Assembly (NCBI RefSeq): GCF_000186885.1
Contig: NC_014972.1
Coordinates: forward strand, 3,270,001 to 3,302,000
DNA from: Desulfobulbus propionicus DSM 2032
GTDB lineage: Bacteria; Desulfobacterota; Desulfobulbia; Desulfobulbales; Desulfobulbaceae
DNA length: 32,000 nt
Direction of reading: 5' to 3'
Shown piece after piece: positions 4,814-32,000 of this stretch (position 1 is its first letter; every line of letters starts with the position of its first letter). The notes beneath the pieces were generated by a model that did no database searches, was not told the DNA's origin, and saw only the letters and a program-made list of their open reading frames with translations. Both the position numbers and the translations under genes were made by a program.

Positions 4814-4982
4814 AGCGAATTACCTCCCAGTACATGTTCAATGACACATTTTCATGTGCGCTTCTCTTCCATCTCGGACCCTATGCAGGTCAGAAACAAT
4901 AAAATTGAACGACCTTATAATGTTCACTTATAAGCGTCAAGCAGAAAAAGGAGCAATGGTGCAAGCAGCCTGCTCTGCCTTG

Positions 4983-5014
4983 AAAAACAAAGGGATCGAC
5001 GTTGTCGATCCCTT
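4983..5014 (-). terminator. Rho-independent terminator downstream of the BI-1 family gene
   Basis: Perfect 11-bp stem AAGGGATCGAC (4990..5000) / GTCGATCCCTT (5004..5014) with a 3-nt loop. On the minus strand it is followed by TGTTTTTC (complement of 4983..4989). It lies 30 nt after the stop at 5044. Confidence 0.7.
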
Positions 5015-5043
5015 GTATTTTGGGCTTGAAAATGAAGAACGGT

Positions 5044-5757
5044 TCAGTCGCGGCTGCCGCCAAAAAATCGCAGCAACATCAGAAACAGGTTGATGAAATC
5101 AAGATAGAGGGCCAAGGCTCCGATGATCGCTCCCTTGCGGATGGCAACCTCGCCCTGCTCCATGATCCCTTCCTCGCCGATGGTCTTGATCTTTTGCACG
5201 TCGTACGCGGTTAGACCCACAAAAACCAGTACACCGATGGCGGAAATGGCCCAGTAAAGAGCCGGGCTCTTGAAAAAGATATTGACGATCGAAGCCAGGA
5301 GAATGCCAATCAGCCCCATGAACATGAACGATCCCATGCCGGACAAATCGCGCTTGGTCACCATGCCGTAGACTGCCATGGCGGCAAACATGCCGGCCGT
5401 TACCAGGAATGTGGCGCCAATGGAGGCGTGGGTGTAGGCGAGAAAGATGGTGGATAGGGTCACACCGTTGAGGACCGAATAGCCGACAAACAGTCCGGTC
5501 GCCGTTCCCGGCTGCAGCTTGTCAATGCGGGCGGAGAGATAGAAAACCATGCCCAGCTCGGCCAACACCAGAATAAAGAATAGGGGGCTGGCGATCAGCG
5601 GCTTGACCAAGCCGGATTCGGCAGTGAACAAGGCCACGCCGCCGGTGATCGCCAGGCCGATGGCCATCCAATGAAATACCTTGGCGAGAAAAATGGTCGA
5701 GGCATCCTGGCGCGCCTTGGCCAGGGTGATGTCACGTGCTCCAATCTGCGTCTGCAT
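5044..5757 (-). CDS. Bax inhibitor-1/YccA family inner-membrane protein
   Basis: 237 aa with about 7 predicted TM helices. Family-typical strings include FLAKVFHWMAIGLAITG, GMVTKRDLSGMGSFMFMGLIG and C-terminal GALALYLDFINLFLMLLRFFGGSRD. A GGAGGA RBS precedes the ATG. Confidence 0.92.
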   Translation of the reverse strand: MQTQIGARDITLAKARQDASTIFLAKVFHWMAIGLAITGGVALFTAESGLVKPLIASPLFFILVLAELGMVFYLSARIDKLQPGTATGLFVGYSVLNGVTLSTIFLAYTHASIGATFLVTAGMFAAMAVYGMVTKRDLSGMGSFMFMGLIGILLASIVNIFFKSPALYWAISAIGVLVFVGLTAYDVQKIKTIGEEGIMEQGEVAIRKGAIIGALALYLDFINLFLMLLRFFGGSRD

Positions 5758-6107
5758 GTCTTAGCGTTCCTCCATATCTTGAAATAGATCACTGCGGTGT
5801 TGAGACGAAATATTAACCATTCCGATTGTAAAGGCAAGACATCTTGCCCTTTGCTGGCAAAAAACGACAAATCAACCTGTTGCGCAGGCCCCTGGACAGG
5901 AACGCCAACATCACGGATTCGGTTAGGTGCCATGCGGCCAAGCTGAAACGCTTCCGGCTGACTAACGGGACGCGCTCGGTCTTGTTTTCTTGTTGGACAG
6001 GTGTGCAAAAATTGAGCGAATGGCGTATCATGGCCGCCATCCGCCACGCGGGGAACAGCACGGGGCCGCCCAGCGCCCATCACCCTTAGCCAAAGAAGAC
6101 ACCCCTC

Positions 6108-21568: not shown

Positions 21569-23059
21569 ATGCTCCACTGTTGCATCTTCCTCTGCGGCGC
21601 GGCCCTGATGATCATCGAACTCACCGGCTCGCGCATCCTGGCCCCCTTCCTTGGCACCTCCCTGGTCGTCTGGACGAGCCTGATCGGAATCATCCTCGCC
21701 AGCCTCAGCTTCGGGGCCTGGTGGGGTGGGGTACTCGCCGACCGATCGCCACGCCCCAATCTCCTGGGGCGCATTGTTTTGATGGCCGCCTGGTCCACCG
21801 CCGCCATTGGCCTGTCCAAGAGCTGGATCCTCGAATTTCTTCAAGGCACGGGCAACCTGCACGCCGTGGCCATCACCGCCACCGTTGCCCTGTTCGCGCC
21901 AGCGGCGATCCTGCTCGGCATGGTGCCGCCCTTTGCGGTCCGCCTCTGCCTGCACGACACCGACCACACAGGACGCACGGCAGGGAGCCTTTATGCCCTC
22001 TCCACCATCGGCTCCATAGTCGGCACCTTTCTCGCCGGGTTTGTTCTCATCGCCTGGGTGGGCAGCACCGCGATTCTCTTCATCACAGCCGCCTTCCTCG
22101 TCCTGGCTTCATGGTTGGCCGAACCCTCGAACAAAGCCATCAAGGGCGTCTCCCTGTTCCTTTTTCTGCTGGCCATCGCCCTCTGCCGCCTCCAGGATCA
22201 ACGCCTTGAGCAACTGGGATTCCTCGACCGGGATACCCCCTACAACCGGGTCTTGGTCTACACCAGCAAGGAAGAAGGCACGGACCGACTGATGCGGGAG
22301 ATGGTCACCGGGCCTCAGGGGCGGCAATCGGCCATGTACCTGGACAATCCTACCGAACTGGCCCTGCCCTACACGCGTTTTTATCGGCTGATCGAGCATT
22401 ACCATCCCACGGCACGCCGCATGCTGGTGCTGGGCGGAGGGGGCTATTCCTTCCCCAAATACGCCTTGGCCCGGTACCCGGATCTGCGGATTGACGTGGT
22501 TGAACTCGATCCAGGTATTACCAACCTGGCGCGGACCCACTTCGGCCTGACCGACCATCCCCGTTTGACCATCATCGAGGAAGACGCCCGTACCTTTCTT
22601 AAAAAAGTCGACCACCCCTACGATGTGATCCTGTGCGATGTGTTCAACTCGCACTACTCCATCCCTTTTCACCTGGTGACCGTCGAGGCCATCGGCCTGA
22701 TGCATTCCGCTCTCAAGGCGGACGGCGTTGTCCTGGTGAACCTGCTAGCCTCCACCGAAGGGGTGTCGAGCCGATTTTACAAGGCGTTGCATGCCACCTT
22801 CCGCGCCGCTTTTCCCTCGGTCCAAGCCTATGCGGTGGTCGATCCCACCGACAAGCACTTGTGGCAGAACATGCTGCTCGTCGCCGGCAAGGGCGAGCTT
22901 TCCACCAACGAGCCCAAGGATCCCTCCCTGCGGCGGATGCTTACCCACGCTCTGCCCCCACCCGATAACCATCCCCCTCCCTTCACCGACGAGTATGCCC
23001 CGGTGGATCGCTACATTGGCGAGTTTGGTTTAGGATTGACCGCGCACAGCGATTCCTGA
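21569..23059 (+). CDS. Membrane-fused spermidine-synthase-like (SpeE-fold methyltransferase-like) protein
   Basis: 496 aa. About 6-7 N-terminal TM helices are followed by MLVLGGGGYSFPKYA...IDVVELDPGI...YDVILCDVF, matching the SpeE-type aminopropyltransferase fold. Confidence 0.85.
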   Translation: MLHCCIFLCGAALMIIELTGSRILAPFLGTSLVVWTSLIGIILASLSFGAWWGGVLADRSPRPNLLGRIVLMAAWSTAAIGLSKSWILEFLQGTGNLHAVAITATVALFAPAAILLGMVPPFAVRLCLHDTDHTGRTAGSLYALSTIGSIVGTFLAGFVLIAWVGSTAILFITAAFLVLASWLAEPSNKAIKGVSLFLFLLAIALCRLQDQRLEQLGFLDRDTPYNRVLVYTSKEEGTDRLMREMVTGPQGRQSAMYLDNPTELALPYTRFYRLIEHYHPTARRMLVLGGGGYSFPKYALARYPDLRIDVVELDPGITNLARTHFGLTDHPRLTIIEEDARTFLKKVDHPYDVILCDVFNSHYSIPFHLVTVEAIGLMHSALKADGVVLVNLLASTEGVSSRFYKALHATFRAAFPSVQAYAVVDPTDKHLWQNMLLVAGKGELSTNEPKDPSLRRMLTHALPPPDNHPPPFTDEYAPVDRYIGEFGLGLTAHSDS

Positions 23060-23256: not shown

Positions 23257-25806
23257 TCAATGCGGGGATGAGGTGGCGAGCAGATATTTTGAGGAGGGCC
23301 CCCGGCCCGACTTCTTCATCAGTCCCTTGTCGACCAAGTCGTGCAAATCGTATTGAGCCGTGCGAACGGAAACGGCATCCCCCACCACCTTCTGATACTC
23401 GCTGCGGCTGATGACGCCATTTTTGACAATCAGAGGCCAGGCCTTGCGTTGCCTGATATTCAACTCGGGAGGGACGCCCATGTCCTGCTGTTCTGCTTCA
23501 GCCTCGTTGGCTGGCGGGGCAGACAGGGCTTTTGCAGGGGGTGTGGGCGGCAGTGCGGACGGAAACGACTCGTTCTCCGGCGCGTCGTCACCTTCCAGCT
23601 CGACGCCTCGCTCGTCAAAGAGAATATGCTGAGCGAGCAGCAGATCGCTTTCGGCAAAAGCCAGCGAGCGGGTGATACAGTTGCGCAACTCACGGATATT
23701 TCCCGGCCAGTCATGACTGAGCAATCGTTCCAGGGCACCACGGCTGATCCCCACCGGGTCCAGCCCTGAGAGGGTCATGTGTTCATCGAGGAAATATTTG
23801 ACCAGTACCGGAATATCCTCCTTCCGCTCACGCAACGGCGGCGTATTGATGGTGATCACCGCCAGGCGGTAGTAGAGATCTTCCCGAAAATCACTGGTCA
23901 GAGAGAGCTGGAGCAGGTCAACATTAGTGGCGGCGATAATGCGGGCGTCAAAGGCGACATCCTGATCCGATCCCAGAGGCCGAATCCGGCGGACGGATAA
24001 GGCTCGCAGCAAGGCCTGCTGCACCTTGGGGGAGGCATTGCCGATCTCATCGAGATGCAGGGTACCGCCCGATGCAGCGACAAAAGCGCCCTTCCGCTCG
24101 TTTTGGGCATCAGAAAAGGCGCCCTTGACATGACCGAACAGGGCATCCATGAGCAGATTTTCATCCAAGGCTCCGCAGTTAATGGAAATGAACGGCCCTT
24201 TGGCCCGGTGACTGACCGAATGGATGGCTTCGGCGGTCAGCTCCTTCCCCGTCCCGGTTTCGCCAACGATCAATACGTCCGCCAGGACCCGCGACGCCTT
24301 GTGGATCTGCTGGCGGAGCGTTCCAACCGCCTGACTGCCGCCGACAATCCCGTAGAGCGGCATGGCCAGCAATCGCGCATCAAGCAACGGATTATCACGC
24401 ATCTCCTTCTCCAAATTGACTCGCTGACGCATGCGATCATCCTCGACAAGCCCTTCGCGCAACAACGAATCACTTCGCGCAATATGCAATTGCATAAGCA
24501 GGATATTGATGGACCGCTGAAACTGGTTGATCTCCGCAAACAGCGGTCCAAGGGCCAGCGGTGAAGGATCGTCTCCACCCGCCCTGACATCGACGGCCTC
24601 GGCGAGCAATTCGAGCTGTCGCGCGATACGGCGACTGACAAAATACATGGCCATGAAGACCAGAATGACGCCAAGTGCCACGCAAACGCTCAAGGTTCCG
24701 GCAATCCGGTAGGTGGAGGCCATGAACACAAAACTGGTGTCGATGCAACCGATACCGCCGACAATACGCCGTGTCCCCGCGCCCTCCTCAAAGACAATCG
24801 GCACATAGCTGAGATAGAGGGATCGATCACTCCCGGACGGCGCGATAAACGGACGCGTGACCAATATCTGTCCCGATTTTCCGGCCTGGACGTCGGACAC
24901 CATCGCCCAGTAGAGATCGTGGGCAAAGCCCGGACGAAAGGCGGTGCTGAATCCAGGACGCCCCACATCTCCCTGCAATCCCATGCGCAAGAGATCGACG
25001 GAAAGATCGGCCTGCTGTCGGTCGGGAGATTCGGATTGGAACAGCAGCCAGCCCGCGGCATCAAAGAAAAAACTTTTTTTATGCTCGCTTTCCTGGGGAA
25101 AGAGGAAGAGCGGCGACTGTTTGGAGGTATGCAGGGAGATGATATCGCGCAAGTGGGGCAGATCGATCGACAGTGTCAGTTGTCCTTTATAGGTCTTGCT
25201 GCCGTCATAGACCGGCGTGGTCAGACGGATGACATGCATGTTGAGCGCGCTCATTTTTCCCTCGACATGCACCGACGGGTAGACCACCTCCATGGGTTCC
25301 CCGATCTGAATGTACCCTGCCGGCTTGCCGGTCAACAGATCGCGACTGGAAAAAATACCGAATTTTGCCCCCATGGCCTGATCAATGGGCACGGGGATCA
25401 CGCTGCTTCCGGTGTTGACCAGGACAAAACGCTCCTCGGCGGTCTGACCATGGAAGGCTATTTCACGATAGCGGTTGCGCTCCTCGGCTGATTTGGCGGC
25501 CAGATGAGTGCTGATTGACTCCGGCGTGAGGGACAGACGGGTGAGATATTCCAATTCGTATCGGGCCGCCACCAGCAACTGGTTGATCTCGTGCGCCTGC
25601 GCTAGAGCCCGCACTTGAGCATTTCTCGAATAGGCTTGGTCGAGATAGGAGGAAACGATGTGATAGGTGACGATCACCGTGGCGGAGAGGATGATCACCA
25701 CCAGCAGAGTGCCCAAGAGCACCAGAAACTTGCCGACGCTCCAGGAATAGATCGACCCATCGACCCGGATCAACGGGTTCAGCAGGGGGGGATGCGAGTA
25801 GCGCAT
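23257..25806 (-). CDS. Membrane-anchored sigma-54 activator-like protein (TM, about 330-aa periplasmic sensor, TM, HAMP-like linker, AAA+, winged-helix C-terminus)
   Basis: The track start at 25833 is a GTG. I prefer ATG 25806 (MRYSHPPLL...), which has AAGGAGAA 8 nt upstream. TM1 is FLVLLGTLLVVIILSATVIV and TM2 is IAGTLSVCVALGVILVFMAMYFV. AAA+ motifs: VGETGTGKE, LFGHVKGAFSDA in place of GAFTGA, GGTLHLDEIG, WPGNIRELRN. The C-terminus ISRSEYQKVVGDAVSVRTAQYDLHDLVDKGLMKKSGRGPSSKYLL is a wHTH pattern, not a Fis-type HTH. Confidence 0.9.
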   Translation of the reverse strand: MRYSHPPLLNPLIRVDGSIYSWSVGKFLVLLGTLLVVIILSATVIVTYHIVSSYLDQAYSRNAQVRALAQAHEINQLLVAARYELEYLTRLSLTPESISTHLAAKSAEERNRYREIAFHGQTAEERFVLVNTGSSVIPVPIDQAMGAKFGIFSSRDLLTGKPAGYIQIGEPMEVVYPSVHVEGKMSALNMHVIRLTTPVYDGSKTYKGQLTLSIDLPHLRDIISLHTSKQSPLFLFPQESEHKKSFFFDAAGWLLFQSESPDRQQADLSVDLLRMGLQGDVGRPGFSTAFRPGFAHDLYWAMVSDVQAGKSGQILVTRPFIAPSGSDRSLYLSYVPIVFEEGAGTRRIVGGIGCIDTSFVFMASTYRIAGTLSVCVALGVILVFMAMYFVSRRIARQLELLAEAVDVRAGGDDPSPLALGPLFAEINQFQRSINILLMQLHIARSDSLLREGLVEDDRMRQRVNLEKEMRDNPLLDARLLAMPLYGIVGGSQAVGTLRQQIHKASRVLADVLIVGETGTGKELTAEAIHSVSHRAKGPFISINCGALDENLLMDALFGHVKGAFSDAQNERKGAFVAASGGTLHLDEIGNASPKVQQALLRALSVRRIRPLGSDQDVAFDARIIAATNVDLLQLSLTSDFREDLYYRLAVITINTPPLRERKEDIPVLVKYFLDEHMTLSGLDPVGISRGALERLLSHDWPGNIRELRNCITRSLAFAESDLLLAQHILFDERGVELEGDDAPENESFPSALPPTPPAKALSAPPANEAEAEQQDMGVPPELNIRQRKAWPLIVKNGVISRSEYQKVVGDAVSVRTAQYDLHDLVDKGLMKKSGRGPSSKYLLATSSPH

Positions 25807-25939
25807 TTGACGTTCTCCTTGCGTAACAATCACGCCGCATCACGAACGGCTTTTTTTTCGCTACCAGATAACGCGCAATAGCGCAATGGCAAAATCACAA
25901 CTCTTTGAAATTTTAAATATATTCATTTGCACAAAAAGT

Positions 25940-25955
25940 TGGCACACGGTTTGTT
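25940..25955 (+). promoter_or_regulatory. Candidate sigma-54 promoter P1 for the 26138..29266 operon
   Basis: TGGCAC-ACGGT-TTGTT: a perfect -24 box with correct spacing, but the -12 element reads GT instead of GC. An AT-rich tract (25901..25938) lies immediately upstream, and a tandem GCGCAAT repeat sits at 25873..25887. Confidence 0.4.
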
Positions 25956-26017: not shown

Positions 26018-26059
26018 GATCTGAGCGCCCAGTCTCCCCCAACTGGTAGCGCTCAGATC
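26018..26059. promoter_or_regulatory. Perfect 11-bp inverted repeat / extended hairpin in the operon control region
   Basis: GATCTGAGCGC (26018..26028) pairs with GCGCTCAGATC (26049..26059). An inner CCAGT (26029..26033) pairs with ACTGG (26042..26046), leaving loop CTCCCCCA. No U-tract follows. It is either an RNA leader structure (if P1 is used) or a DNA operator/UAS (if P2 is used). Confidence 0.5.
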
Positions 26060-26075
26060 CCATTCGTGACCAACC

Positions 26076-26091
26076 CGGCACCAGACCTGCC
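26076..26091 (+). promoter_or_regulatory. Alternative candidate sigma-54 promoter P2
   Basis: CGGCAC-CAGAC-CTGCC has the GG and GC dinucleotides at canonical spacing. The predicted start is about 36 nt before ATG 26138. The same bases form the 7-bp hairpin CCCGGCA (26074..26080) / TGCCGGG (26088..26094), so the match may simply reflect the palindrome. Confidence 0.35.
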
Positions 26092-26137
26092 GGGATGCAC
26101 AAGCCAACAAGCAAGACATCAAAAGAGGAGAACACAA

Positions 26138-26437
26138 ATGAAGAAACGATTACTGCGGTTATGGTGGGCGTTCCTGACCCTGGTGCTGTTTGCTCCGAGC
26201 CTGTCCCTGGCGGCGGGTGGCGGGAAAAGCGCCCCCATTGTCATTGTTGCCGATACGCGCAAACTGGACGGCATCATGGCTTGGTGGGCCAACTTGTACA
26301 ACGAAAGTCACGTGTACTTCATGATCCTGACCATCATCATCATTCCCCTCACCGGCGTGATCTTCGGTGTCCTAGCGGACATCATCATGGGTTGGATCGG
26401 CATCGATCTGAAATCCCGCGAACTGGCTGAACATTAA
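26138..26437 (+). CDS. Small secreted/type-I membrane protein (99 aa), first gene of the envelope operon
   Basis: Lies within ORF 25886..26437. ATG 26138 is preceded by AAGAGGAG. Signal peptide MKKRLLRLWWAFLTLVLFAPSLSLA|AGGG, a short periplasmic segment (APIVIVADTRKLDGIMAWWANLYNESH), then one C-terminal TM helix (VYFMILTIIIIPLTGVIFGVLADIIMGWI). Confidence 0.8.
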   Translation: MKKRLLRLWWAFLTLVLFAPSLSLAAGGGKSAPIVIVADTRKLDGIMAWWANLYNESHVYFMILTIIIIPLTGVIFGVLADIIMGWIGIDLKSRELAEH

Positions 26438-26458
26438 TTCGATTTCAAGGAGACCCTC

Positions 26459-27514
26459 ATGGACTGGCTTTATATTCTCATGCCCATTGCCGGTGTTAAG
26501 ATTTTCTGGCCCGGCCTCATTATCCTCGGTATCGGCGTTGGTATCATTGGCGGTTTCTTTGGCATGGGCGGTGCCTGGATGGTGACCCCCGGCCTTAACA
26601 TTCTCGGTTTCCCCATGGCCTTTGCCATCGGCACCGACATCGCCCACATGGCCGGAAAATCACTCATCTCCACCATGCGGCACGGCAAGTTCGGCAACGT
26701 TGACTACAAACTCGGCATGATCATGCTGGTCGGCACGGTGGTCGGCTTCGAGTGCGGCGCCCAGATGGTTATGTGGCTGGAGCGCCTTGGTTCGGTGGAA
26801 AAGGTTGTCCGCTGGATCTATGTCGGCCTGCTGCTGTTCATTGCCTGGACCGTCTTCCACGATGTGGCCAAACGCAAGGCCAAAGAGAAGGCTGCCGCTG
26901 AAAAAGGCGAGACCCTGGAAGCCGGCGCCACCGGTGTCGAGTGGCACAAGACCCTGCACAAGATCAAGATCCCGCCGATGGTCCATCTCAAGGCCGCTGG
27001 CATCTACTGCTCCGCCTGGCTGCCGATCTTCGTCAGTTTCCTTACCGGTTGGCTGGCCGGTATCCTCGGTATCGGCGGCGGTCTGATCCGTATGCCCGCC
27101 CTGATCTACATGATCGGTTGCCCGACCCATGTTGCCGTCGGCACCGACCTGTTTGAAGTGGCCATTTCCGGTCTGTACGGTGCAGCCACCTATACCTTCA
27201 AGGGCCGGACCGAACTGGTCGCCGCCATGGTCATGCTCGTCGGCGCCGCCATGGGTGCCCAGGTTGGCGCGGTCGCCACCAAGTACATCAAGGGCTACGG
27301 CATCCGTATCATCTTCGGCTACGCGGTTCTCGGCTGCATGGCCTCCATCCTGATGAAGCTCGTCCAACCCTGGCTGCCGCAATACAAGGATCTGCTCAAC
27401 AACATGGCCACCATCACCGTTCTTGGCCTGATCACCGCCATGTCGGCCTACATCTTCATCAAGATGGTCCAGGGCGTGAAGAAGGAATTGGCCATGAAAC
27501 AACAGAAAATTTAA
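26459..27514 (+). CDS. TauE/SafE (sulfite-exporter) family anion permease, long-loop variant
   Basis: 351 aa with 4+4 TM architecture. Both halves carry GGFFGMGGAWMVTPGL and GILGIGGGLIRMPALI repeats. The central charged loop reads KRKAKEKAAAEKGETLEAGATGVEWHKTLHK. AAGGAG RBS upstream. Confidence 0.88.
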   Translation: MDWLYILMPIAGVKIFWPGLIILGIGVGIIGGFFGMGGAWMVTPGLNILGFPMAFAIGTDIAHMAGKSLISTMRHGKFGNVDYKLGMIMLVGTVVGFECGAQMVMWLERLGSVEKVVRWIYVGLLLFIAWTVFHDVAKRKAKEKAAAEKGETLEAGATGVEWHKTLHKIKIPPMVHLKAAGIYCSAWLPIFVSFLTGWLAGILGIGGGLIRMPALIYMIGCPTHVAVGTDLFEVAISGLYGAATYTFKGRTELVAAMVMLVGAAMGAQVGAVATKYIKGYGIRIIFGYAVLGCMASILMKLVQPWLPQYKDLLNNMATITVLGLITAMSAYIFIKMVQGVKKELAMKQQKI

Positions 27515-27538
27515 TCCGGATCGCATAAGGAGACCAGA

Positions 27539-28153
27539 ATGAACGTGAAACAGATACTGCTCACCATGGCCGCGGCCGCCATGGCCATGACGCTCACGGC
27601 ATGCAAGGAAGATTACGGCAAGGTGGAACAAGGTCGGGCCATCGCCTTTGACAAGGACAAGAAAGAGGTTACCCTGATCCATGACAGCGCCATGGATCCC
27701 CAGAAACCGGTGTACGATGTCCTGCCTCCCTCGGTGTTCAAGCTGCCGACCGATCCCAAGGAAACAGGCCCCGAACCCAAGGCCGGGCAGCGTTTGAAGC
27801 TGGACACGGACAAGAAAATCATCGTGATCTTCGACACCAATACCCAGAAAATCGTCGAGGTGCCGATCACCATCGTGGATCTGCAACAGCCCGTCGACAA
27901 GGAGCATCCGCTGGTGTATGACAAGGCCGAGAAGAAGGCCAAGAAGTTCCCGGCCGTGGACAAAGAGAAGAAGACCATCACCATTTACTCCGGTCGCCAG
28001 AAAATGCTCTGCACCTTCTCGGTCCCGGACCAGTACTTCAGCTATCCTGACAGCACCTGGGACGCAGGCGATGAAGTACGGCTCTACTACAAGACAGCTG
28101 GCCAATCGCTGCGGTTCATGAACATCTCCAAAACCGATATCTTCAAGAAGTAA
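27539..28153 (+). CDS. Lipoprotein of unknown function
   Basis: 204 aa. Signal peptide with lipobox (AMAMTLTAC). The mature part is Lys/Asp-rich and beta-rich. AAGGAG RBS upstream. From memory it may belong to a Desulfovibrio-type DUF lipoprotein family, but I cannot verify this. Confidence 0.85.
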   Translation: MNVKQILLTMAAAAMAMTLTACKEDYGKVEQGRAIAFDKDKKEVTLIHDSAMDPQKPVYDVLPPSVFKLPTDPKETGPEPKAGQRLKLDTDKKIIVIFDTNTQKIVEVPITIVDLQQPVDKEHPLVYDKAEKKAKKFPAVDKEKKTITIYSGRQKMLCTFSVPDQYFSYPDSTWDAGDEVRLYYKTAGQSLRFMNISKTDIFKK

Positions 28154-28208
28154 AGGCTCCACAGCGGGCGGGAGTCATCCCGCCCGCTGCTCCACCGAGA
28201 GGTTGACC

Positions 28209-28430
28209 ATGTCGGACTATACTTTCTTTCTCTTGCACAAACTGTTGGTGATCGGAATCAACTGCCTGGTGGTCCTGGCCCTGTTCATCGCCATGTATCG
28301 CGCCTCGCTTTATCCGGACGATTTTAATCTCACCTTTTTCAAGACCATCTTTTCCCTGCTCATCCCCACGCTGATCCTCGGGTGCATCGGCAAACGATTC
28401 CTCCGCAGCCGTTGCAACACCTCGATATGA
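28209..28430 (+). CDS. Small 2-TM membrane protein (73 aa)
   Basis: ATG 28209 with GAGAGG about 8 nt upstream; the track start at 28203 is a TTG. Two hydrophobic helices (LLVIGINCLVVLALFIAMY and FSLLIPTLILGCIG). Its stop overlaps the next gene's start (ATGA at 28427..28430). Confidence 0.6.
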   Translation: MSDYTFFLLHKLLVIGINCLVVLALFIAMYRASLYPDDFNLTFFKTIFSLLIPTLILGCIGKRFLRSRCNTSI

Positions 28431-29266
28431 CCGCAGGCTTTGGATTCGTCATCTGGCAAAAACGCGCTGGCCTGGTGGCCATGGTGTTGCTGGTGGCGGC
28501 CCTGCTGTCCCTGGCCGACGCGCTTGTGGGCGGCTTCCGGGGCGGGGGGGGGCTAATCGAACTCCTCCCCGGCGATCACTATCTCATCAGCGGCCCCCTG
28601 CCGCCACGAACCGAGGCAATCAGGGATTTTGTCATCGATGGCCAGCCCGATGATGGCTCGGTTCGCCTCATCCCGAAAACCATCTTTTCCGGATACTGGT
28701 TCGGCGGGTCGATGTGGCGCGGAGCCATCGAGGTCGATCCCCATGCCCAGGAAGGCCACCATGTGTTTCGCGTCAAGGACCCCTACGGCGAAAAACAGAA
28801 TCCCGCGCTGGTCTTCAATGTCCGCGTTTGGCCCGACCAGGCCACCCTCAATGCCCATTCGCCTTCGCTCCTGACCCGGCTGACCGGAGTGAGCCCCTTC
28901 GTCGTCGCCGTTGCCTTCGCCTTGGGCGGCATCGCGGGGATGGCGGCCAATTTCCTTTTCGGACGTTTGTGGGCGCGGCATCTCCACACCCACCACTGTG
29001 GCGAAATTTACAAGCTCCGCCAGACGGAACGAGGCACGGAAATAACCTGTGAACTTCACTGTGGCCGAGCCCTCCAACCCGGCATGGACGGGGCAGTCTA
29101 TCGACCATCTGGCGAGCTTTTGGGCGCAGCCAAGGTGATTAACTGTGAAAACGGCGAGGTCTTGCTGCTGATCAGTCAGTCCATTGATGTGCGTTTGGGC
29201 GATGTCGCCTGTGTCCAGGTCGAGAGCAAGCAGAATGGCTCGGAGAGGGGCAGCTCCGCCGTTTGA
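28427..29266 (+). CDS. Bitopic/2-TM membrane protein with periplasmic domain and Cys/His-bearing cytoplasmic C-terminal domain
   Basis: Lies within ORF 28382..29266. The start is ATG 28427 (MTAGFGFVIWQKRAGLVAMVLLVAALL), overlapping the upstream stop. TM1 is followed by about 130 aa (LLPGDHYLISGPLPP...VFNVRVWPD), then TM2 (VSPFVVAVAFALGGIAGMAANFLF), then RHLHTHHCGEIYKL...ITCELHCG... and a beta-rich tail. Confidence 0.75.
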   Translation: MTAGFGFVIWQKRAGLVAMVLLVAALLSLADALVGGFRGGGGLIELLPGDHYLISGPLPPRTEAIRDFVIDGQPDDGSVRLIPKTIFSGYWFGGSMWRGAIEVDPHAQEGHHVFRVKDPYGEKQNPALVFNVRVWPDQATLNAHSPSLLTRLTGVSPFVVAVAFALGGIAGMAANFLFGRLWARHLHTHHCGEIYKLRQTERGTEITCELHCGRALQPGMDGAVYRPSGELLGAAKVINCENGEVLLLISQSIDVRLGDVACVQVESKQNGSERGSSAV

Positions 29267-29491: not shown

Positions 29492-31144
29492 ATGGAAAGA
29501 AACTATCGAAAACTCTGGTGGCAGCACTGTCTGGCCATTATTTGTTTTTCCGTTGTTCCCCTGTTGTTCGTCAACATCTCCCTCTACGTGCTCTTTGACC
29601 GGATATACACCGACACGGTCACGGAAACCCTGCGGAGCTCGGCCGAAAACCGACGCGACGCCATCGACCTGTTTTTTTCCGAGCGTATCGCCCAGCTGTT
29701 CACTGTCGCCAACACCAACACCTTCAAGGACCTCACCGACGAGAACTATCTCAACCGCGTGTTCGACATCATGCATGCCAAGTCCACTTCCTACATGGAT
29801 ATTGGCATCATTGACAACGAGGGCCGCCACCTCTCCTATGTTGGCCCCTACTACGACCTGCTCAAACAGGTCAACTACAAGAACGAACCCTGGTTCAACG
29901 CCGTCAAGGCCAACGGTATCTACATCAGCGACATCTTCATGGGGTATCGCAAGGTGCCTCATTTCATTATCGCGGTCATGGTTCGGGAGAAGAGTACCTC
30001 CTGGATCCTGCGGGTGACGATCAACCTGAAGAACATCGACGACATCGTCCATAAGGCGTGGATCGGCACCCTGAGTGATGCCTACATCGTCAACGGCAAG
30101 AATATCCTCCAGACCAGGCCGCGCTTCGGCGGCGACTTCCTTGAACCCGCCGGTGGACCGGATTTTTCTTCAACCGTGGCCACCAAGATCTCCCGACTCG
30201 CCTATAAAGGCAGCGAGGCGTTCTACGCCGCCATTCCCGTCGCCAACACCAAGTGGGTGCTGGTGATCAAGGAAAATCCCGATGAAATTCTTTCCCCGCT
30301 GCAAAAGGGCAAATATTGGATGGCCTTCCTTTCGCTGCTGGGCTTGACCATCATCGCCACCGGCGCCGCCTTGTTCACCAACACCCTGATCAACCGCATC
30401 GAGGAAACGGATCGCGAGAATGCCGCCAATTCCGATATGCTGCTCCAGGCCAACAAGATGATCGCCCTCAGCAAGATGGCTGCGGGCATCGCCCATGAGG
30501 TCAACAATCCCCTGGCTTCGATTTCCGAAAAGGCTGGTTGGATGAAAGACCTGCTTGCCGAAGAGGATATCGCCGCCAGCCCCAATTTCGCCGAGTTCAG
30601 TGAATCGATCGACAAGATCGAGTATCATGTCGACAGGGCAAGAAAAATAGTTCACAACCTGCTTGGTTTTGCCCGAAGAATGGAACCAGCCAAAGAGAAG
30701 ATCAACATCAACAACCTGCTCGACGAAACGACCGGATTGCTGGAAAACGAGGCCCGGTATGTCAACATCCTCATCAAAAAGCAGTATGCGGAAAATGTCC
30801 CGGTGATCACCAGCGACCTGTCCCAGATCCAGCAGGTGGTGCTCAACCTGCTCAACAATGCCATCGACGCCATCGGCAGTGACGGCACGATCACTGTCGG
30901 CTCGCGCTATCTTGAGGACACCGACCAGGTGGAGCTGTGGGTCGCCGATACCGGCAAGGGCATACCTGAAGCCGAGCAGAGCAAGATCTTCGAACCGTTC
31001 TTCACCACCAAGGCTGTTGGCAAGGGCACGGGCCTTGGACTTTCCATTTCATACAGCATTATCGAAAAGCTGGGCGGGAAAATGCGGGTTCAGAGCAAGG
31101 TAGGCGAGGGAACGATGTTCACCATTCTTCTTCCGAAAAATTAA
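29492..31144 (+). CDS. Membrane sensor histidine kinase (Cache-like periplasmic domain, HisKA, HATPase_c), paralog of 15421..17190
   Basis: 550 aa. TM helices [21 protein letters not shown] and [20 protein letters not shown]-box [14 protein letters not shown]-box [13 protein letters not shown]-boxes ADTGKGIP and [12 protein letters not shown]. Confidence 0.93.
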
Positions 31145-31150
31145 GGGTAC

Positions 31151-31537
31151 ATGATGGATACGTTGCGGGTTTTATTTGTGGATGACGAGGATGATTTTCG
31201 GGAAACCATTGTCAAAAGGCTGAATGCAAGAAAAATCCAGGCCATGGGTGCCGAAAGCGGTTTCAAGGCCCTGGAAATTCTTAAAGACCACGATTTTGAC
31301 GTCATGGTGCTGGACGTCAAGATGCCGGGCATGGACGGGATTGAAACCCTGCGGCACGTGAAGAAGATGAAACCGGAGATCGAGGTCATCATGCTCACCG
31401 GTCATGCCTCGGTGGAGTTTGGCCTCAAGGGCATGCAGCTCGGTGCCTTTGACTATGTGATGAAACCGGCGCCGCTCAACGAACTGCTCGACACCATCGG
31501 TCAGGCCTACAACAAGAAACGTGGCGTGATTCACTGA
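31151..31537 (+). CDS. Single-domain response regulator (REC)
   Basis: 128 aa. LRVLFVDDEDDF...FDVMVLDVKMPGMDGI...MLTGHAS...FDYVMKP. Confidence 0.93.
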   Translation: MMDTLRVLFVDDEDDFRETIVKRLNARKIQAMGAESGFKALEILKDHDFDVMVLDVKMPGMDGIETLRHVKKMKPEIEVIMLTGHASVEFGLKGMQLGAFDYVMKPAPLNELLDTIGQAYNKKRGVIH

Positions 31538-31652: not shown

Positions 31653-32000
31653 ATGAGAGTCTGGGATACAAGTCATCTGCTCGATGATATACCGGCCAGC
31701 AAAACCGCTTCCACCGAGCATGTCTACGACTATACCGACAGTCAGGCCAACCTGAACCGCATTCGACAGCACTTCAAACAGCTCCAGACCCGGTTGATCC
31801 TGGGCTTGGTGGTCGGCTTTCTGCTGCCCAACGCCCTGCTTTCCGCCTACTTTCATTACCAGTTTGCCCATACCCTGAAAAACAGCGCCAAGCTCAATCT
31901 GATCGCGGTGGCGGAGAGCCAGAAAAACACTATCGATCTCTACCTGCAGGAACGGCTGGTCAATCTGTACAACCTGTTCCACAGCAAGGAATTCACCCTG
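31653..32000 (+). CDS. N-terminal part of a third paralogous sensor histidine kinase (runs off the right window edge)
   Basis: Absent from the ORF track because it has no stop in the window. My translation from ATG 31653 (GGAGAGG about 9 nt upstream) is MRVWDTSHLLDDIPASKT...RLILGLVVGFLLPNALLSAYFHYQFAHTLKNSAKLNLIAVAESQKNTIDLYLQERLVNLYNLFHSKEFTL. It is open to position 32000. The TM helix and post-TM segment parallel [22 protein letters not shown] of the 29492 kinase. The minus ORF 31566..31982 is its shadow. Confidence 0.75.
   Translation, partial: MRVWDTSHLLDDIPASKTASTEHVYDYTDSQANLNRIRQHFKQLQTRLILGLVVGFLLPNALLSAYFHYQFAHTLKNSAKLNLIAVAESQKNTIDLYLQERLVNLYNLFHSKEFTL

What the first reader, a model, noticed from the sequence alone, without database searches (positions are those of the whole stretch)
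26138..29266. Five-gene envelope module built around a TauE/SafE-like permease, with no assignable function: candidate novel transport or sensing complex
Five same-strand genes are separated by 21, 24 and 55 nt, with a 4-nt ATGA overlap between the last two. The first four have strong or recognisable RBSs (AAGAGGAG, AAGGAG x2, GAGAGG). All products are predicted to be envelope proteins. (1) A 99-aa signal-peptide protein with a C-terminal anchor. (2) A 351-aa TauE/SafE-type 4+4 TM permease with an unusually long charged central loop. (3) A 204-aa Lys/Asp-rich lipoprotein. (4) A 73-aa 2-TM protein. (5) A 279-aa protein with a periplasmic domain between two TM helices and a cytoplasmic tail beginning RHLHTHHCGE...CELHCG, a possible metal or redox site. 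Known TauE/SafE members move sulfite, sulfoacetate or other small anions and act alone. Here the permease is embedded with four accessory proteins, placed under a dedicated membrane-bound activator, and followed by a Cache-HK/REC/HK module. That pattern suggests a multi-subunit system responding to an extracytoplasmic cue, plausibly a sulfur or selenium oxyanion or an organosulfonate in this type of organism. The substrate guess is pure inference.
Basis: partly seen in the sequence, partly recalled or inferred. Interest (0 to 1): 0.7.

Follow-up and report, generated by a model that had tools for sequence, protein, structure and literature searches.

The report
Conserved multi-subunit TauE transporter operon
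This is the Desulfobulbus propionicus copy of a conserved, sigma-54-controlled gene cluster already noticed in Desulfovibrio vulgaris (DVU0150-DVU0146, switched on during syntrophic growth); it most likely builds a multi-subunit membrane transporter for a small inorganic ion, and its substrate is still unknown.

Summary
Five same-strand genes lie at 26138-29266 with the stated spacers, ribosome-binding sites and ATGA overlap, and all five products are envelope proteins. The window is Desulfobulbus propionicus DSM 2032 (gene 5 = Despr_2860).

The cluster is not new as an object. Gene 1 is an NCBIfam 'DVU0150 family' equivalog, gene 3 is Pfam DUF4881, and gene 2 is a TauE/TSUP permease. The layout matches the D. 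vulgaris DVU0150-DVU0146 operon. That operon was predicted to be a sigma-54 target of DVU0151 and reported as up-regulated in syntrophic co-culture. Its function is unknown.

Synteny is very strong. Genes 1-2-3 are present in 51/51 genome loci that have room for them, gene 5 in 45/48 and gene 4 in 40/48. A wider family keeps the same plan: small subunit, TSUP permease, short DUF4881-like periplasmic protein and a gene-4-like protein.

Best reading: a Cache-sensor/sigma-54-controlled, multi-subunit TSUP ion transporter with a periplasmic small-beta-barrel partner. Uptake of a sulfur oxyanion is the leading but unproven substrate guess, and a metal cation is the main rival.

Novelty: a new member of a known but uncharacterised kind.

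The parts
23257..25833 (-). Divergent sigma-54 enhancer-binding protein (858 aa). It has two TM segments flanking a periplasmic Cache-like region, an AAA+ domain with a GAFSDA motif at residue 571, and no Fis-type HTH. It corresponds to DVU0151.
   Evidence: Pfam Sigma54_activat 6e-58, AAA_lid_14, and a weak dCache_1 hit. Hydropathy gives segments 28-64 and 374-404. GAFSDA position. The full-length ortholog lies divergent to g1 in 27 genome loci. DVU0151 is described with GAFSEA and without a Fis HTH (PMC4641369).
25873..25887 (+). Tandem direct repeat GCGCAAT-A-GCGCAAT, a candidate activator-binding site upstream of the promoter.
   Evidence: Read from the sequence. GCGCAA-like elements align at this position in 16 Desulfobulbaceae loci. 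Binding is inferred, not shown.
25940..25954 (+). Sigma-54 (-24/-12) promoter TGGCACacggtTTGT, 184 nt upstream of the gene 1 start codon.
   Evidence: It is the only exact TGGCAC-N5-TTGY match in the 32-kb window. TGGCAY-N5-TTGN occurs 120-210 nt upstream of g1 in 25/51 loci under a strict pattern, and it is aligned in all close relatives.
26018..26059 (+). Conserved hairpin in the 5' leader, with loop WWUCCCCC. It is specific to Desulfobulbaceae.
   Evidence: RNAalifold predicts 14 pairs, 7 of them with compensatory changes. Of the cells, 98% are paired, and 0/500 shuffles reach the observed covariation score. Slid controls are far lower. No Rfam family matches.
26138..26437 (+). Gene 1: DVU0150-family small membrane subunit (99 aa). 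It has a cleavable signal peptide, a conserved periplasmic segment (IVIVADTR..WW.NLYNESH), one long TM segment, and the invariant C-terminus IDLKSRELAEH.
   Evidence: NCBIfam NF040783 equivalog at 1.1e-46 and 157 bits (cut-off 70), full length. Conservation and hydropathy. It lies immediately upstream of the permease in 51/51 genome loci and in 51 metagenome loci.
26459..27514 (+). Gene 2: long-form TSUP/TauE permease (351 aa). It has the duplicated G-rich/GTD motifs, a charged central loop with an invariant IPP, and the clade signature D60/H63, R211, C221-P-T-H224 and D230/E233.
   Evidence: Pfam TauE 1.9e-41. It is 60-92% identical across phyla. The signature was compared with 87 more distant representatives. 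No solved structure is found by sequence.
27539..28153 (+). Gene 3: DUF4881 periplasmic lipoprotein (204 aa). It is all-beta, made of small barrel/hairpin modules, and ends in the near-invariant C-terminus RFMNISKTDIFKK.
   Evidence: Pfam DUF4881 2.7e-77. Lipobox and 71% mean column identity. AlphaFold2 pLDDT 87.9. The best Foldseek PDB hits are CusF/SilF at E 0.18-0.5, which is not significant. A short 110-aa homolog occupies the same position in sister loci.
28162..28189 (+). Very stable GC hairpin directly after gene 3 (CAGCGGGCGGGA-gtca-TCCCGCCCGCTG, -27 kcal/mol) with no U tract. It is a likely internal attenuator or mRNA-stabilising element that separates the g1-g3 core from g4-g5.
   Evidence: A hairpin of -19 to -43 kcal/mol with unrelated sequence lies at the same place in nearly every related genome locus. 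Its effect on expression is inferred.
28209..28430 (+). Gene 4: 73-aa two-TM protein, translationally coupled to gene 5 by the ATGA overlap.
   Evidence: HMM hits lie downstream of g3 in 40/48 genome loci and 22 metagenome loci. No Pfam or NCBIfam family matches.
28427..29266 (+). Gene 5 (Despr_2860): a bitopic-pair membrane protein with a periplasmic Ig-like beta-sandwich carrying the conserved GxWxGGxMWRG motif, and a cytoplasmic beta-barrel.
   Evidence: It is 100% identical to Despr_2860. AlphaFold2 pLDDT 90.7. Foldseek matches chagasin/ICP-type Ig-like folds at E about 1e-3. Conservation analysis. It is present in 45/48 loci.
29492..31144 (+). Sensor histidine kinase with a periplasmic dCache_1 domain. 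It is a conserved neighbour of the cluster.
   Evidence: Pfam dCache_1, HisKA and HATPase_c. A full-length ortholog lies next to the cluster in about 21 genome loci, before or after it, and also in sister-clade metagenome loci.
31151..31537 (+). Stand-alone receiver (REC-only) response regulator. Its counterpart in D. vulgaris is DVU0145.
   Evidence: Pfam Response_reg 1.5e-29 with no output domain. It is conserved in 31 loci. DVU0145 is described as the response regulator next to the cluster (PMC4265775).
31653..32000 (+). Start of a second membrane sensor kinase. It runs off the end of the window.
   Evidence: Open frame with a TM segment. The homologous gene in L001 is a 597-aa dCache_1 histidine kinase followed by a second REC.

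Best explanation
The region is the Desulfobulbus propionicus ortholog of the Desulfovibrio vulgaris DVU0150-DVU0146 cluster. It is a sigma-54-dependent operon encoding a multi-subunit transporter built on a long-form TSUP (TauE-like) permease.

Shown:
- The five genes and their envelope topology.
- Their orthology to the D. vulgaris cluster.
- Near-perfect synteny across Desulfobulbales, Desulfovibrionales, Syntrophobacterales, Thermodesulfovibrio and other MAGs.
- A conserved -24/-12 promoter facing a membrane-bound enhancer-binding protein.
- An invariant, very highly conserved three-gene core (g1 small subunit, g2 permease, g3 periplasmic lipoprotein), followed by a conserved hairpin and then the faster-evolving g4-g5.

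Inferred mechanism:
- A periplasmic signal is read by the Cache-like domain of the activator, with the dCache kinase/REC pair as a second input.
- This signal switches on sigma-54 transcription.
- g2 forms the translocation path. Its pseudo-symmetric Asp/His and Asp/Glu pairs in TM2 and TM6 serve as the ion-coupling or ion-binding site.
- g1 and g4 are small integral subunits.
- g3, a membrane-tethered stack of small CusF/TOBE-like beta-barrels, captures or hands over the ion at the periplasmic face.
- The hairpin after g3 lets the core be made in excess of g4-g5.

Most likely role (weakest step): uptake of a small inorganic sulfur oxyanion (sulfite, thiosulfate or sulfate type) when sulfate respiration is not running. 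This would fit the reported induction in sulfate-free syntrophic growth and the repression after sulfate addition.
For: Identity and orthology. g1 is an NCBIfam DVU0150-family equivalog at 157 bits, g3 is DUF4881 and g2 is TauE. g5 equals Despr_2860. The layout and the GAFS[DE]A activator match the published DVU0151 -> DVU0150-DVU0146 regulon (PMC4641369).

Joint function.
- g1-g2-g3 are present in 51/51 loci, g5 in 45/48 and g4 in 40/48.
- g2 is 60-92% identical, g3 46-86% and g1 43-91% across phyla.
- g3 has 71% mean column identity.
- The same plan is found in 80 metagenome loci of sister clades: a g1-like protein upstream of the permease in 51, a short DUF4881-like protein downstream in 34, and a g4-like protein in 22.

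Regulation. There is a unique and conserved sigma-54 promoter. dCache HK and REC are recurrent neighbours. A Usp gene is fused to the operon in 22 distant loci, as is seen next to many regulated transporters.

Hairpin after g3. It is present in almost all loci, each time with a different sequence. This agrees with reports that single out DVU0148-DVU0150.

Ion-type substrate. g3 has small beta-barrels whose best, though weak, fold matches are CusF/SilF and TOBE-type domains.

Sulfur link.
- The family is TauE/TSUP.
- The haloarchaeal homologs (33-40% identical, with the same central loop) sit among MBL-fold hydrolase, YeeE/YedE, PiT-type permease, TusA/DsrE, sulfurtransferase and thioredoxin genes.
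- The carriers of the cluster are almost all sulfate reducers or their syntrophic relatives.
- Expression is up in sulfate-free co-culture (PMC4265775).
- A TauE homolog has been proposed as a sulfite importer in Archaeoglobus (PMC3949148).
Against: - No experiment or annotated homolog assigns a substrate or a transport direction.
- No physical interaction between the subunits is shown. AlphaFold-Multimer could not be run here.
- The fold matches of g3 are not significant (E > 0.1), and g3 is not a Venus-flytrap binding protein.
- The clade-specific D60/H63, C221/H224 and D230/E233 residues in g2 would suit a metal cation at least as well as proton coupling.
- The haloarchaeal sulfur context belongs to relatives that lack most of this signature and are probably exporters.
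- From memory, the original co-culture comparison used sulfate-limited monocultures. I could not read that paper. If so, simple sulfate limitation may not be the inducing signal.
- The hairpin after g3 has no U tract, and its effect on expression is untested.
Confidence: 0.4

Rival explanations
1. This is a metal-cation homeostasis system. The TSUP permease moves a transition-metal cation such as Fe, Zn, Ni or Co. g3 acts as a CusF-like periplasmic metallochaperone. The operon is induced when sulfide production stops and free metal activity rises, as in sulfate-free syntrophic growth.
For: - The clade signature in g2 is an Asp/His pair, a Cys-Pro-Thr-His motif and an Asp/Glu pair at pseudo-symmetric TM positions. 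More distant TSUPs lack it.
- The best fold matches of g3 are CusF and SilF.
- From established knowledge, TSUP and NiCoT metal permeases are classed as related 4+4 TM families.
- Repression after sulfate addition fits sulfide-controlled metal availability equally well.
Against: - g3 has no conserved His, Met or Cys. The CusF ligands are absent, and the conserved residues are QG(R/K), GD..R..Y and (R/K)xMNxSKxD.
- The CusF matches are not significant.
- The His/Cys cluster in g5 is lineage-specific.
- C221 is variable even within the clade.
- No metal-responsive regulator or metal-related neighbour recurs.
Confidence: 0.2
2. This is an ordinary TauE-type exporter of sulfite or another sulfur anion. 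It serves as a safety valve for the sulfate-reduction or disproportionation pathway, and the small proteins are only stabilising partners.
For: - Pfam TauE match.
- The closest archaeal relatives lie in sulfide/persulfide-oxidation-type neighbourhoods, where sulfite export is the expected role.
- Characterised family members (TauE, SafE) are exporters, from established knowledge and as cited in PMC5840216.
Against: - The D. vulgaris cluster is reported as up-regulated when no sulfate is being reduced, so no sulfite is being made. It is reported as unresponsive to stresses in sulfate-grown cultures (PMC4265775).
- Exporters rarely need a tethered periplasmic partner, periplasmic Cache sensors and sigma-54 control.
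Confidence: 0.12
3. This is a signalling or co-sensor complex rather than a transporter. The permease-like protein and its partners report an extracytoplasmic or membrane state to the adjacent Cache kinases, the REC protein and the activator, in the way DctA-DcuS or BceAB-BceS work.
For: - Three Cache-type sensors and REC-only regulators are tightly linked to the cluster, and the dCache kinase is conserved next to it in distant clades.
- g5 has a sensor-like architecture: TM, periplasmic domain, TM, cytoplasmic barrel.
Against: - g2 is conserved over its whole transmembrane core at 60-92% identity, as expected of a working carrier.
- Many loci carry the g1-g3 core with different regulators or none nearby, such as Usp, NtrC-type regulators or a PPDK_N protein.
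- g5 is the least conserved part.
Confidence: 0.1
4. The five genes are neighbours without a shared function. They are separate envelope proteins that happen to be co-located.
For: - No direct interaction data exist.
- A strong hairpin and, in distant taxa, 100-500 nt spacers separate g3 from g4-g5.
Against: - g1-g2-g3 keep the same order in 51/51 loci across phyla. g4/g5 follow in 40-45 of 48 loci.
- The start and stop codons of g4/g5 overlap.
- The same plan recurs in sister clades.
Confidence: 0.03

Closest known systems
Desulfovibrio vulgaris Hildenborough DVU0150-DVU0146 cluster with DVU0151 (sigma-54 activator) and DVU0145 (response regulator)
   Same: It has the same gene families in the same order: a DVU0150-family protein, a TauE-like permease, a lipoprotein and two hypothetical membrane proteins. 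A divergent one-component membrane activator carries a GAFS[DE]A motif and no Fis HTH. A sigma-54 promoter is present, and a REC gene lies downstream.
   Different: The organism belongs to a different order (Desulfobulbales). A dCache kinase and a second kinase/REC pair are inserted downstream. The Desulfobulbaceae have their own structured 5' leader and a Cys/His-rich g5 tail. Expression in syntrophy is known only for D. vulgaris.
TauE/SafE (TSUP family, TC 2.A.102) single-component anion permeases, e.g. Cupriavidus necator TauE (sulfite) and SafE (sulfoacetate)
   Same: Gene 2 matches Pfam PF01925 well above threshold and has the duplicated 4-TM repeat with G-rich motifs.
   Different: Gene 2 is about 100 residues longer, with a charged central loop and an extra C-terminal hydrophobic segment. 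It carries the clade-specific D/H, CPTH and D/E residues. It is always accompanied by g1 and g3 and stands under sigma-54/Cache control. The substrate and direction are unknown.
Tripartite secondary transporters (TRAP DctPQM; TTT TctABC)
   Same: The logic is the same: a large secondary permease, a small membrane subunit and an extracytoplasmic partner protein encoded together. Usp-type and two-component regulation lie nearby. This is a resemblance in how it may work, not in ancestry.
   Different: There is no sequence or fold relationship. The permease is TSUP, not DctM or TctA. g3 is a stack of small beta-barrels, not a Venus-flytrap binding protein. Substrate capture by g3 is untested.
CusF/SilF periplasmic metallochaperones of the CusCFBA/Sil systems
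   Same: They are small all-beta periplasmic proteins. The best structural matches of the g3 model are CusF/SilF, and the short g3 homologs have the size of CusF.
   Different: The matches are not significant (E 0.18-0.5). The Met/His/Trp copper ligands are not conserved. The partner is a TSUP permease, not an RND pump.
Haloarchaeal DUF7512 + TauE pairs (with Usp) on megaplasmids
   Same: They have a long-form TauE with the same central loop (IPPM motif) and the GTDLFE motif, at 33-40% identity. A tiny one-TM protein is encoded immediately upstream in 6/6 loci, and a Usp gene lies nearby in 5/6.
   Different: DUF7512 shows no detectable homology to g1. There are no DUF4881, g4 or g5 partners. 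The first-half D60/H63 and the C221/H224 residues are absent. The context is sulfur oxidation/detoxification genes, which suggests export.

Membership tests
DVU0150-DVU0146-type cluster (D. vulgaris) | First gene is a DVU0150-family protein (NCBIfam NF040783, equivalog) | tested here: met
   1.1e-46, 157.3 bits against a cut-off of 70, aligned 1-99 of 99
DVU0150-DVU0146-type cluster (D. vulgaris) | Followed on the same strand by a TauE-like permease and a lipoprotein (DVU0149, DVU0148), then two small or hypothetical membrane proteins | tested here: met
   Pfam TauE and DUF4881. The lipobox is present. The published description of DVU0148 as a lipoprotein and of the DVU0146-DVU0150 cluster agrees. 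The same order is seen in Desulfovibrionaceae loci L016-L019.
DVU0150-DVU0146-type cluster (D. vulgaris) | Divergent one-component sigma-54 activator with a GAFSEA-type motif and without a Fis-type HTH, plus a sigma-54 promoter | tested here: met
   Sigma54_activat 6e-58 and no HTH_8 hit. GAFSDA at residue 571. Promoter at 25940-25954. Published features of DVU0151.
DVU0150-DVU0146-type cluster (D. vulgaris) | Induced in syntrophic (sulfate-free) growth and repressed on return to sulfate respiration | not testable with these tools
   Expression data exist only for D. vulgaris (PMC4265775). None were found for Despr genes.
TSUP / TauE-SafE family (Pfam PF01925) | Profile match above the curated threshold, with a duplicated 4-TM repeat | tested here: met
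   142.7 bits against 32.6, covering 20-292. The repeated GxGGG...P.L...GTD motifs and the hydropathy support the repeat.
TSUP / TauE-SafE family (Pfam PF01925) | Transport of sulfite, sulfoacetate or another sulfur-containing anion | not testable with these tools
   There is only indirect context: the sulfur-gene neighbourhoods of archaeal relatives.
TRAP / TTT tripartite transporters | DctM/TctA-type large permease and DctQ/TctB small subunit | tested here: not met
   No Pfam or NCBIfam hits to these families for g1, g2 or g4
TRAP / TTT tripartite transporters | Venus-flytrap periplasmic substrate-binding protein | tested here: not met
   The g3 model is all-beta small barrels. Foldseek finds no binding-protein fold.
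CusF-type metallochaperone | Small OB-like beta-barrel fold | tested here: inconclusive
CusF-type metallochaperone | Conserved Met/His (and Trp) ligands for Cu(I)/Ag(I) | tested here: not met
   No invariant His or Cys, and Met194 is the only invariant Met, among 39 long and 32 short homologs
   C191 in 22/48, C208 in 15/48, C212 in 9/48, C262 in 21/48. H187, H189, H190 and H211 are variable. Conservation is seen only within Desulfobulbaceae.

The most novel reading that the evidence does not exclude
The g1-g2-g3(-g4) module would be a third, so far unrecognised class of periplasmic-protein-dependent secondary transporter, beside TRAP and TTT. It would be built on a TSUP permease with a small OB-like capture protein. 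In sulfate reducers it would be the long-sought inducible, high-accumulating uptake system for sulfate, thiosulfate or sulfite described physiologically in the 1980s-90s, including for Desulfobulbus propionicus, whose genes were never identified.
Probability: 0.15. Interest if true: 0.8.

Novelty: new member of a known kind. Interest (0 to 1): 0.5.

Why it matters
The cluster is one of the most consistently reported 'syntrophy genes' of Desulfovibrio, and it is conserved across sulfate reducers and syntrophs of several phyla. Nobody knows what it does.

This analysis shows several things. The invariant unit is a three-part core: a small subunit, a TSUP permease and a tethered periplasmic beta-barrel protein. 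A much wider family shares that plan. The eye-catching Cys/His tail is a lineage quirk.

These results turn a vague 'hypothetical membrane cluster' into a concrete and testable transporter model. If the substrate proves to be a sulfur oxyanion, it would identify missing transport genes of dissimilatory sulfur metabolism. It would also help explain how these organisms switch between respiration and syntrophy. If the substrate is a metal, it would link syntrophy to metal availability in the absence of sulfide.

Tried and rejected
1. Metal/redox site in g5: rejected as a family feature.
2. PilZ-like reading of the g5 cytoplasmic barrel (RxxxR before the barrel): there is no Pfam hit, and the motif is not conserved in the 48-sequence alignment.
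3. Homology of g1 to the haloarchaeal DUF7512 partner: none by hmmsearch or hhalign.
4. Known RNA families in the leader or the intergenic hairpins: no Rfam hit at E <= 10.
5. Canonical intrinsic terminator after g3 or g5: none on the + strand by the consensus scan.
6. Solved structures by sequence for g1, g2, g3, g5 and both sensor domains: nothing significant.
7. Similarity between the periplasmic domains of the activator and the kinase: no BLAST similarity.
9. Papers by Walker 2009 and Plugge 2011 on the D. vulgaris cluster: not held. Scholten 2007 has no PMC id and I did not look it up. What I say about them beyond searches is from memory.
10. Literature on the Despr_ or Dde_ locus tags of the cluster: nothing found.
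11. Recurrent metabolic neighbour genes that could name the substrate: only regulators recur, namely the sigma-54 activator, HK, REC, Usp and a PPDK_N protein.

Full report
**1. The observation**

The spacers of 21, 24 and 55 nt, the ATGA overlap and the four Shine-Dalgarno sequences can be read directly from the sequence.

All products are envelope proteins:
- Gene 1 has a signal peptide ending LAA|GGG and a long C-terminal hydrophobic segment.
- Gene 2 is a TauE/TSUP permease (Pfam 1.9e-41) with a charged central loop.
- Gene 3 has a lipobox. Its mature part contains 27 Lys and 19 Asp in 182 residues.
- Gene 4 has two hydrophobic segments.
- Gene 5 was modelled with pLDDT 90.7. It has a TM helix, a periplasmic beta-sandwich, a second TM helix and a cytoplasmic beta-barrel.

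The divergent upstream gene is a sigma-54 enhancer-binding protein with two TM segments. Downstream lie a dCache histidine kinase, a REC-only protein and the start of a second sensor kinase.

**2. What it is**

The window comes from Desulfobulbus propionicus DSM 2032. Gene 5 is 100% identical to Despr_2860. Gene 1 matches the NCBIfam equivalog model 'DVU0150 family' over its full length, at 157 bits against a cut-off of 70. Gene 3 is Pfam DUF4881.

The cluster is therefore the ortholog of D. vulgaris Hildenborough DVU0150-DVU0146. Kazakov et al. (PMC4641369) list that operon as the predicted target of the one-component activator DVU0151. DVU0151 has a GAFSEA motif, a long unknown N-terminal sensing region and no Fis-type HTH. 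The activator here has GAFSDA, two TM segments around a Cache-like region and no HTH_8 hit.

Qi et al. (PMC4265775) summarise earlier array work and add single-cell data. The cluster has no functional annotation. It is up-regulated in syntrophic co-culture with a methanogen. It does not respond to the stresses tested in pure culture. The response regulator DVU0145 lies next to it. No paper mentions the Despr_ or Dde_ orthologs.

So the object has been described before, but its function is open.

**3. Synteny**

Seeding with gene 3 returned 55 species-level genome loci. They come from Desulfobulbales, Desulfovibrionales, Syntrophobacterales/Syntrophales, Desulfobacterium N47 and Thermodesulfovibrio. 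There are also MAGs labelled Acidobacteriota, Nitrospinota and Nitrospira.

With profile searches of the ORFs, g1-g2-g3 occur in that order in 50 of the 51 loci that have room for them. The one exception is an ORF-start artefact. g5 occurs in 45/48 loci and g4 in 40/48 (tblastn view).

Conservation is steeply graded. g2 is 60-92% identical, g1 43-91%, g3 46-86%, g4 30-76% and g5 23-69%.

The full-length membrane activator is divergent to g1 only in the Desulfobulbales- and Desulfovibrionales-type loci. Elsewhere the dCache kinase plus REC, or NtrC-type regulators, lie next to the cluster. In 22 loci a Usp gene directly precedes g1 on the same strand.

**4. Regulation and transcript anatomy**

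TGGCACacggtTTGT at 25940-25954 is the only exact -24/-12 match in the window. It aligns with equivalent motifs in all close relatives and is found in 25/51 loci under a strict pattern. Upstream of it lies a tandem GCGCAAT repeat.

Directly after the g3 stop codon there is a 12-bp GC stem (28162-28189, -27 kcal/mol) without a U tract. A hairpin of -19 to -43 kcal/mol with unrelated sequence occupies the same position in almost every related locus. In distant taxa the g3-g4/g5 spacer grows to 100-500 nt.

I read this as a conserved partition into a g1-g3 core and a g4-g5 accessory pair. This fits reports that emphasise DVU0148-DVU0150. The effect on expression is inferred.

**5. The proteins**

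*Gene 2.* It is nearly invariant through its transmembrane core. I compared it with 87 full-length representatives of more distant long-form TSUPs. These came from a search that found 6849 library hits at E < 1e-3 and 234 at E < 1e-30. The clade carries D60/H63 (GTDIAH), R211, C221-P-T-H224 and D230/E233 (GTDLFE). More distant members have Ser/Gly and Gln/Phe/Tyr at these positions. These pseudo-symmetric acidic/His pairs are candidates for an ion-binding or ion-coupling site.

*Gene 3.* It is modelled confidently (pLDDT 87.9) as all-beta modules. The best Foldseek PDB matches are CusF and SilF, with traces of TOBE-type domains. All have E > 0.1, so this is only a lead. No His or Cys is conserved, and Met194 is the only invariant Met. 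The conserved residues are QGR, GD..R..Y and RFMNISKTDIFKK.

*Gene 5.* Its periplasmic domain is an Ig-like sandwich (chagasin/ICP-type, E about 1e-3) with the conserved motif GxWxGGxMWRG. Its Cys/His tail is conserved only inside Desulfobulbaceae.

**6. A wider family**

A metagenome scan with more distant permeases (36-50% identical to g2) returned 80 loci. Of these:
- 51 have a g1-like gene immediately upstream of the permease.
- 34 have a 110-aa secreted protein immediately downstream. It shares both termini of DUF4881 (V.QGK..YD and GD..RIAY...RVMNVSKQDL.KK). It passes the Pfam DUF4881 threshold at 31 bits against 27.
- 22 have a g4-like gene.

dCache kinase, REC and Usp genes recur in these loci. 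In 27 loci a divergent PPDK_N/PEP-utilizer protein stands where the activator stands here. The module 'small subunit, TSUP, small periplasmic beta protein, g4' is therefore much broader than the Desulfovibrio cluster.

**7. Archaeal relatives**

The best plasmid-borne homologs of g2 are haloarchaeal TauE proteins (33-40% identical). They have the same central loop with the IPPM motif, and the GTDLFE motif. In 6/6 loci inspected they are preceded by a 48-57-aa one-TM protein; the two that I scanned match Pfam DUF7512. They are usually flanked by Usp, MBL-fold hydrolase, YeeE/YedE, PiT-type permease, thioredoxin, TusA/DsrE or sulfurtransferase genes.

This gives the subfamily a sulfur-compound context. 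It also shows that a tiny membrane partner is not unique to the bacterial clade. DUF7512 is not detectably homologous to g1.

**8. Mechanism and rivals**

The best-supported reading is a multi-subunit TSUP ion transporter switched on through periplasmic Cache-type sensing and sigma-54. For the substrate I favour uptake of a sulfur oxyanion, for these reasons:
- The family is TauE/TSUP.
- The archaeal relatives sit in sulfur-gene neighbourhoods.
- The carriers are almost all sulfate reducers and their syntrophic relatives.
- The D. vulgaris cluster is induced in sulfate-free growth.
- Transporters for sulfite and thiosulfate in these organisms are unidentified, and the sulfate carriers remain uncertain (PMC5840216; PMC3949148).

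The main rival is metal-cation handling. It is supported by the D/H/C/H/D/E signature and the CusF-like hint. It is weakened by the lack of soft ligands in g3 and by the lineage-specific Cys/His tail in g5. Plain sulfite export, a co-sensor role and mere co-location are less likely, for the reasons given in the rival entries.

My probabilities for the steps:

| Step | Probability |
|---|---|
| Orthology to the D. vulgaris cluster | about 0.95 |
| Sigma-54 operon | about 0.85 |
| Joint transporter complex | about 0.65 |
| Sulfur-oxyanion uptake | about 0.25 |

**9. Novelty and score**

The finding re-discovers a 'known unknown'. It is a new member (in a new order) of an already described but uncharacterised cluster type.

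What this analysis adds:
- The core/accessory partition and the conserved hairpin after g3.
- The broader family with a short DUF4881-like protein.
- The clade signature in the permease.
- The refutation of the Cys/His site as a family feature.
- A covarying leader hairpin.

Interest is moderate (0.5). The system is widespread and linked to a much-studied lifestyle, but nothing here fixes its function. The most novel reading that is still open is a third class of periplasmic-protein-dependent secondary transporter that accounts for inducible sulfur-oxyanion accumulation in sulfate reducers. I give it a probability of about 0.15.

Noticed in passing
window 26018-26059 (and a second, weaker hairpin about 26078-26098): The roughly 185-nt 5' leader of gene 1 holds a hairpin with a conserved C-rich loop (WWUCCCCC). 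In 13 Desulfobulbaceae it is 98% paired, and 7 of its 14 pairs show compensatory changes. No shuffle out of 500 reaches the observed covariation score. No Rfam family matches. It is absent from Desulfovibrionales leaders. Its function is unknown, and it is not an obvious anti-Shine-Dalgarno element.
   Followed up: partly
window 28162-28189; the same position in loci L001-L055: A very stable GC hairpin follows the stop codon of gene 3 in almost every DUF4881-clade locus. The sequences are unrelated, and the stabilities range from -19 to -43 kcal/mol. In Thermodesulfovibrio loci it is followed by a T-rich tail, like a terminator. In the short-g3 sister clade, g3 and g4 are instead only 3-45 nt apart.
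   Followed up: partly
loci L021-L054, e.g. L036:3091-3504: In 22 distant genome loci (Syntrophobacterales, Thermodesulfovibrio, an Acidobacteriota MAG and others), a 137-aa universal stress protein gene (Pfam Usp 3.7e-28) sits immediately upstream of gene 1 on the same strand. Usp genes also flank the haloarchaeal homologs.
   Followed up: partly
metagenome loci L062-L141, e.g. L135:6049-6384 and L104:6065-6400: A sister family has a 110-aa secreted 'short DUF4881' protein that keeps only the two termini of gene 3. It lies directly after a related TSUP permease. A g1-like gene precedes that permease, and a g4-like gene often follows the short protein.
   Followed up: partly
metagenome loci, e.g. 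L081:1646-4240 (-): In 27 of 80 sister-clade loci, an 864-aa protein lies divergent to the g1-like gene, in the place the sigma-54 activator occupies in Desulfobulbus. It has PPDK_N and PEP-utilizer mobile domains and an unassigned 300-aa C-terminus.
   Followed up: no
plasmid loci L056-L061 (e.g. L056:4734-4895 and 4899-5927): Haloarchaeal long-form TauE genes are always preceded by a 48-57-aa one-TM protein; the two scanned are Pfam DUF7512. They sit among MBL-fold hydrolase, YeeE/YedE, PiT-type permease, TusA/DsrE, sulfurtransferase and thioredoxin genes. This looks like a sulfur-compound island.
   Followed up: partly
window 23257-25833, 29492-31144, 31653-32000: Three separate periplasmic Cache-type sensors surround the operon: the activator and two kinases. 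They come with REC-only regulators that have no output domain. The two sensor domains I compared show no BLAST similarity. How the REC proteins act is unclear.
   Followed up: partly
window 25873-25887: A tandem direct repeat GCGCAAT-A-GCGCAAT lies about 55 nt upstream of the sigma-54 promoter. GCGCAA-like elements align here in relatives. It is a candidate binding site for the winged-helix-type activator.
   Followed up: partly
window 21569-23059 (+): The gene upstream of the activator encodes a fused MFS/spermidine-synthase-like protein (NCBIfam NF037959, 1.8e-83). I saw no link to the cluster, and it is not among the families that recur across the related loci.
   Followed up: no
window 28427-29266, residues 186-212 and 262 of gene 5: Cys191, Cys208 and Cys262 are nearly invariant within Desulfobulbaceae but are replaced elsewhere (Lys/Gln, Phe, Ser/Ala). 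This may be a lineage-specific cytoplasmic metal or thiol site on the beta-barrel.
   Followed up: yes
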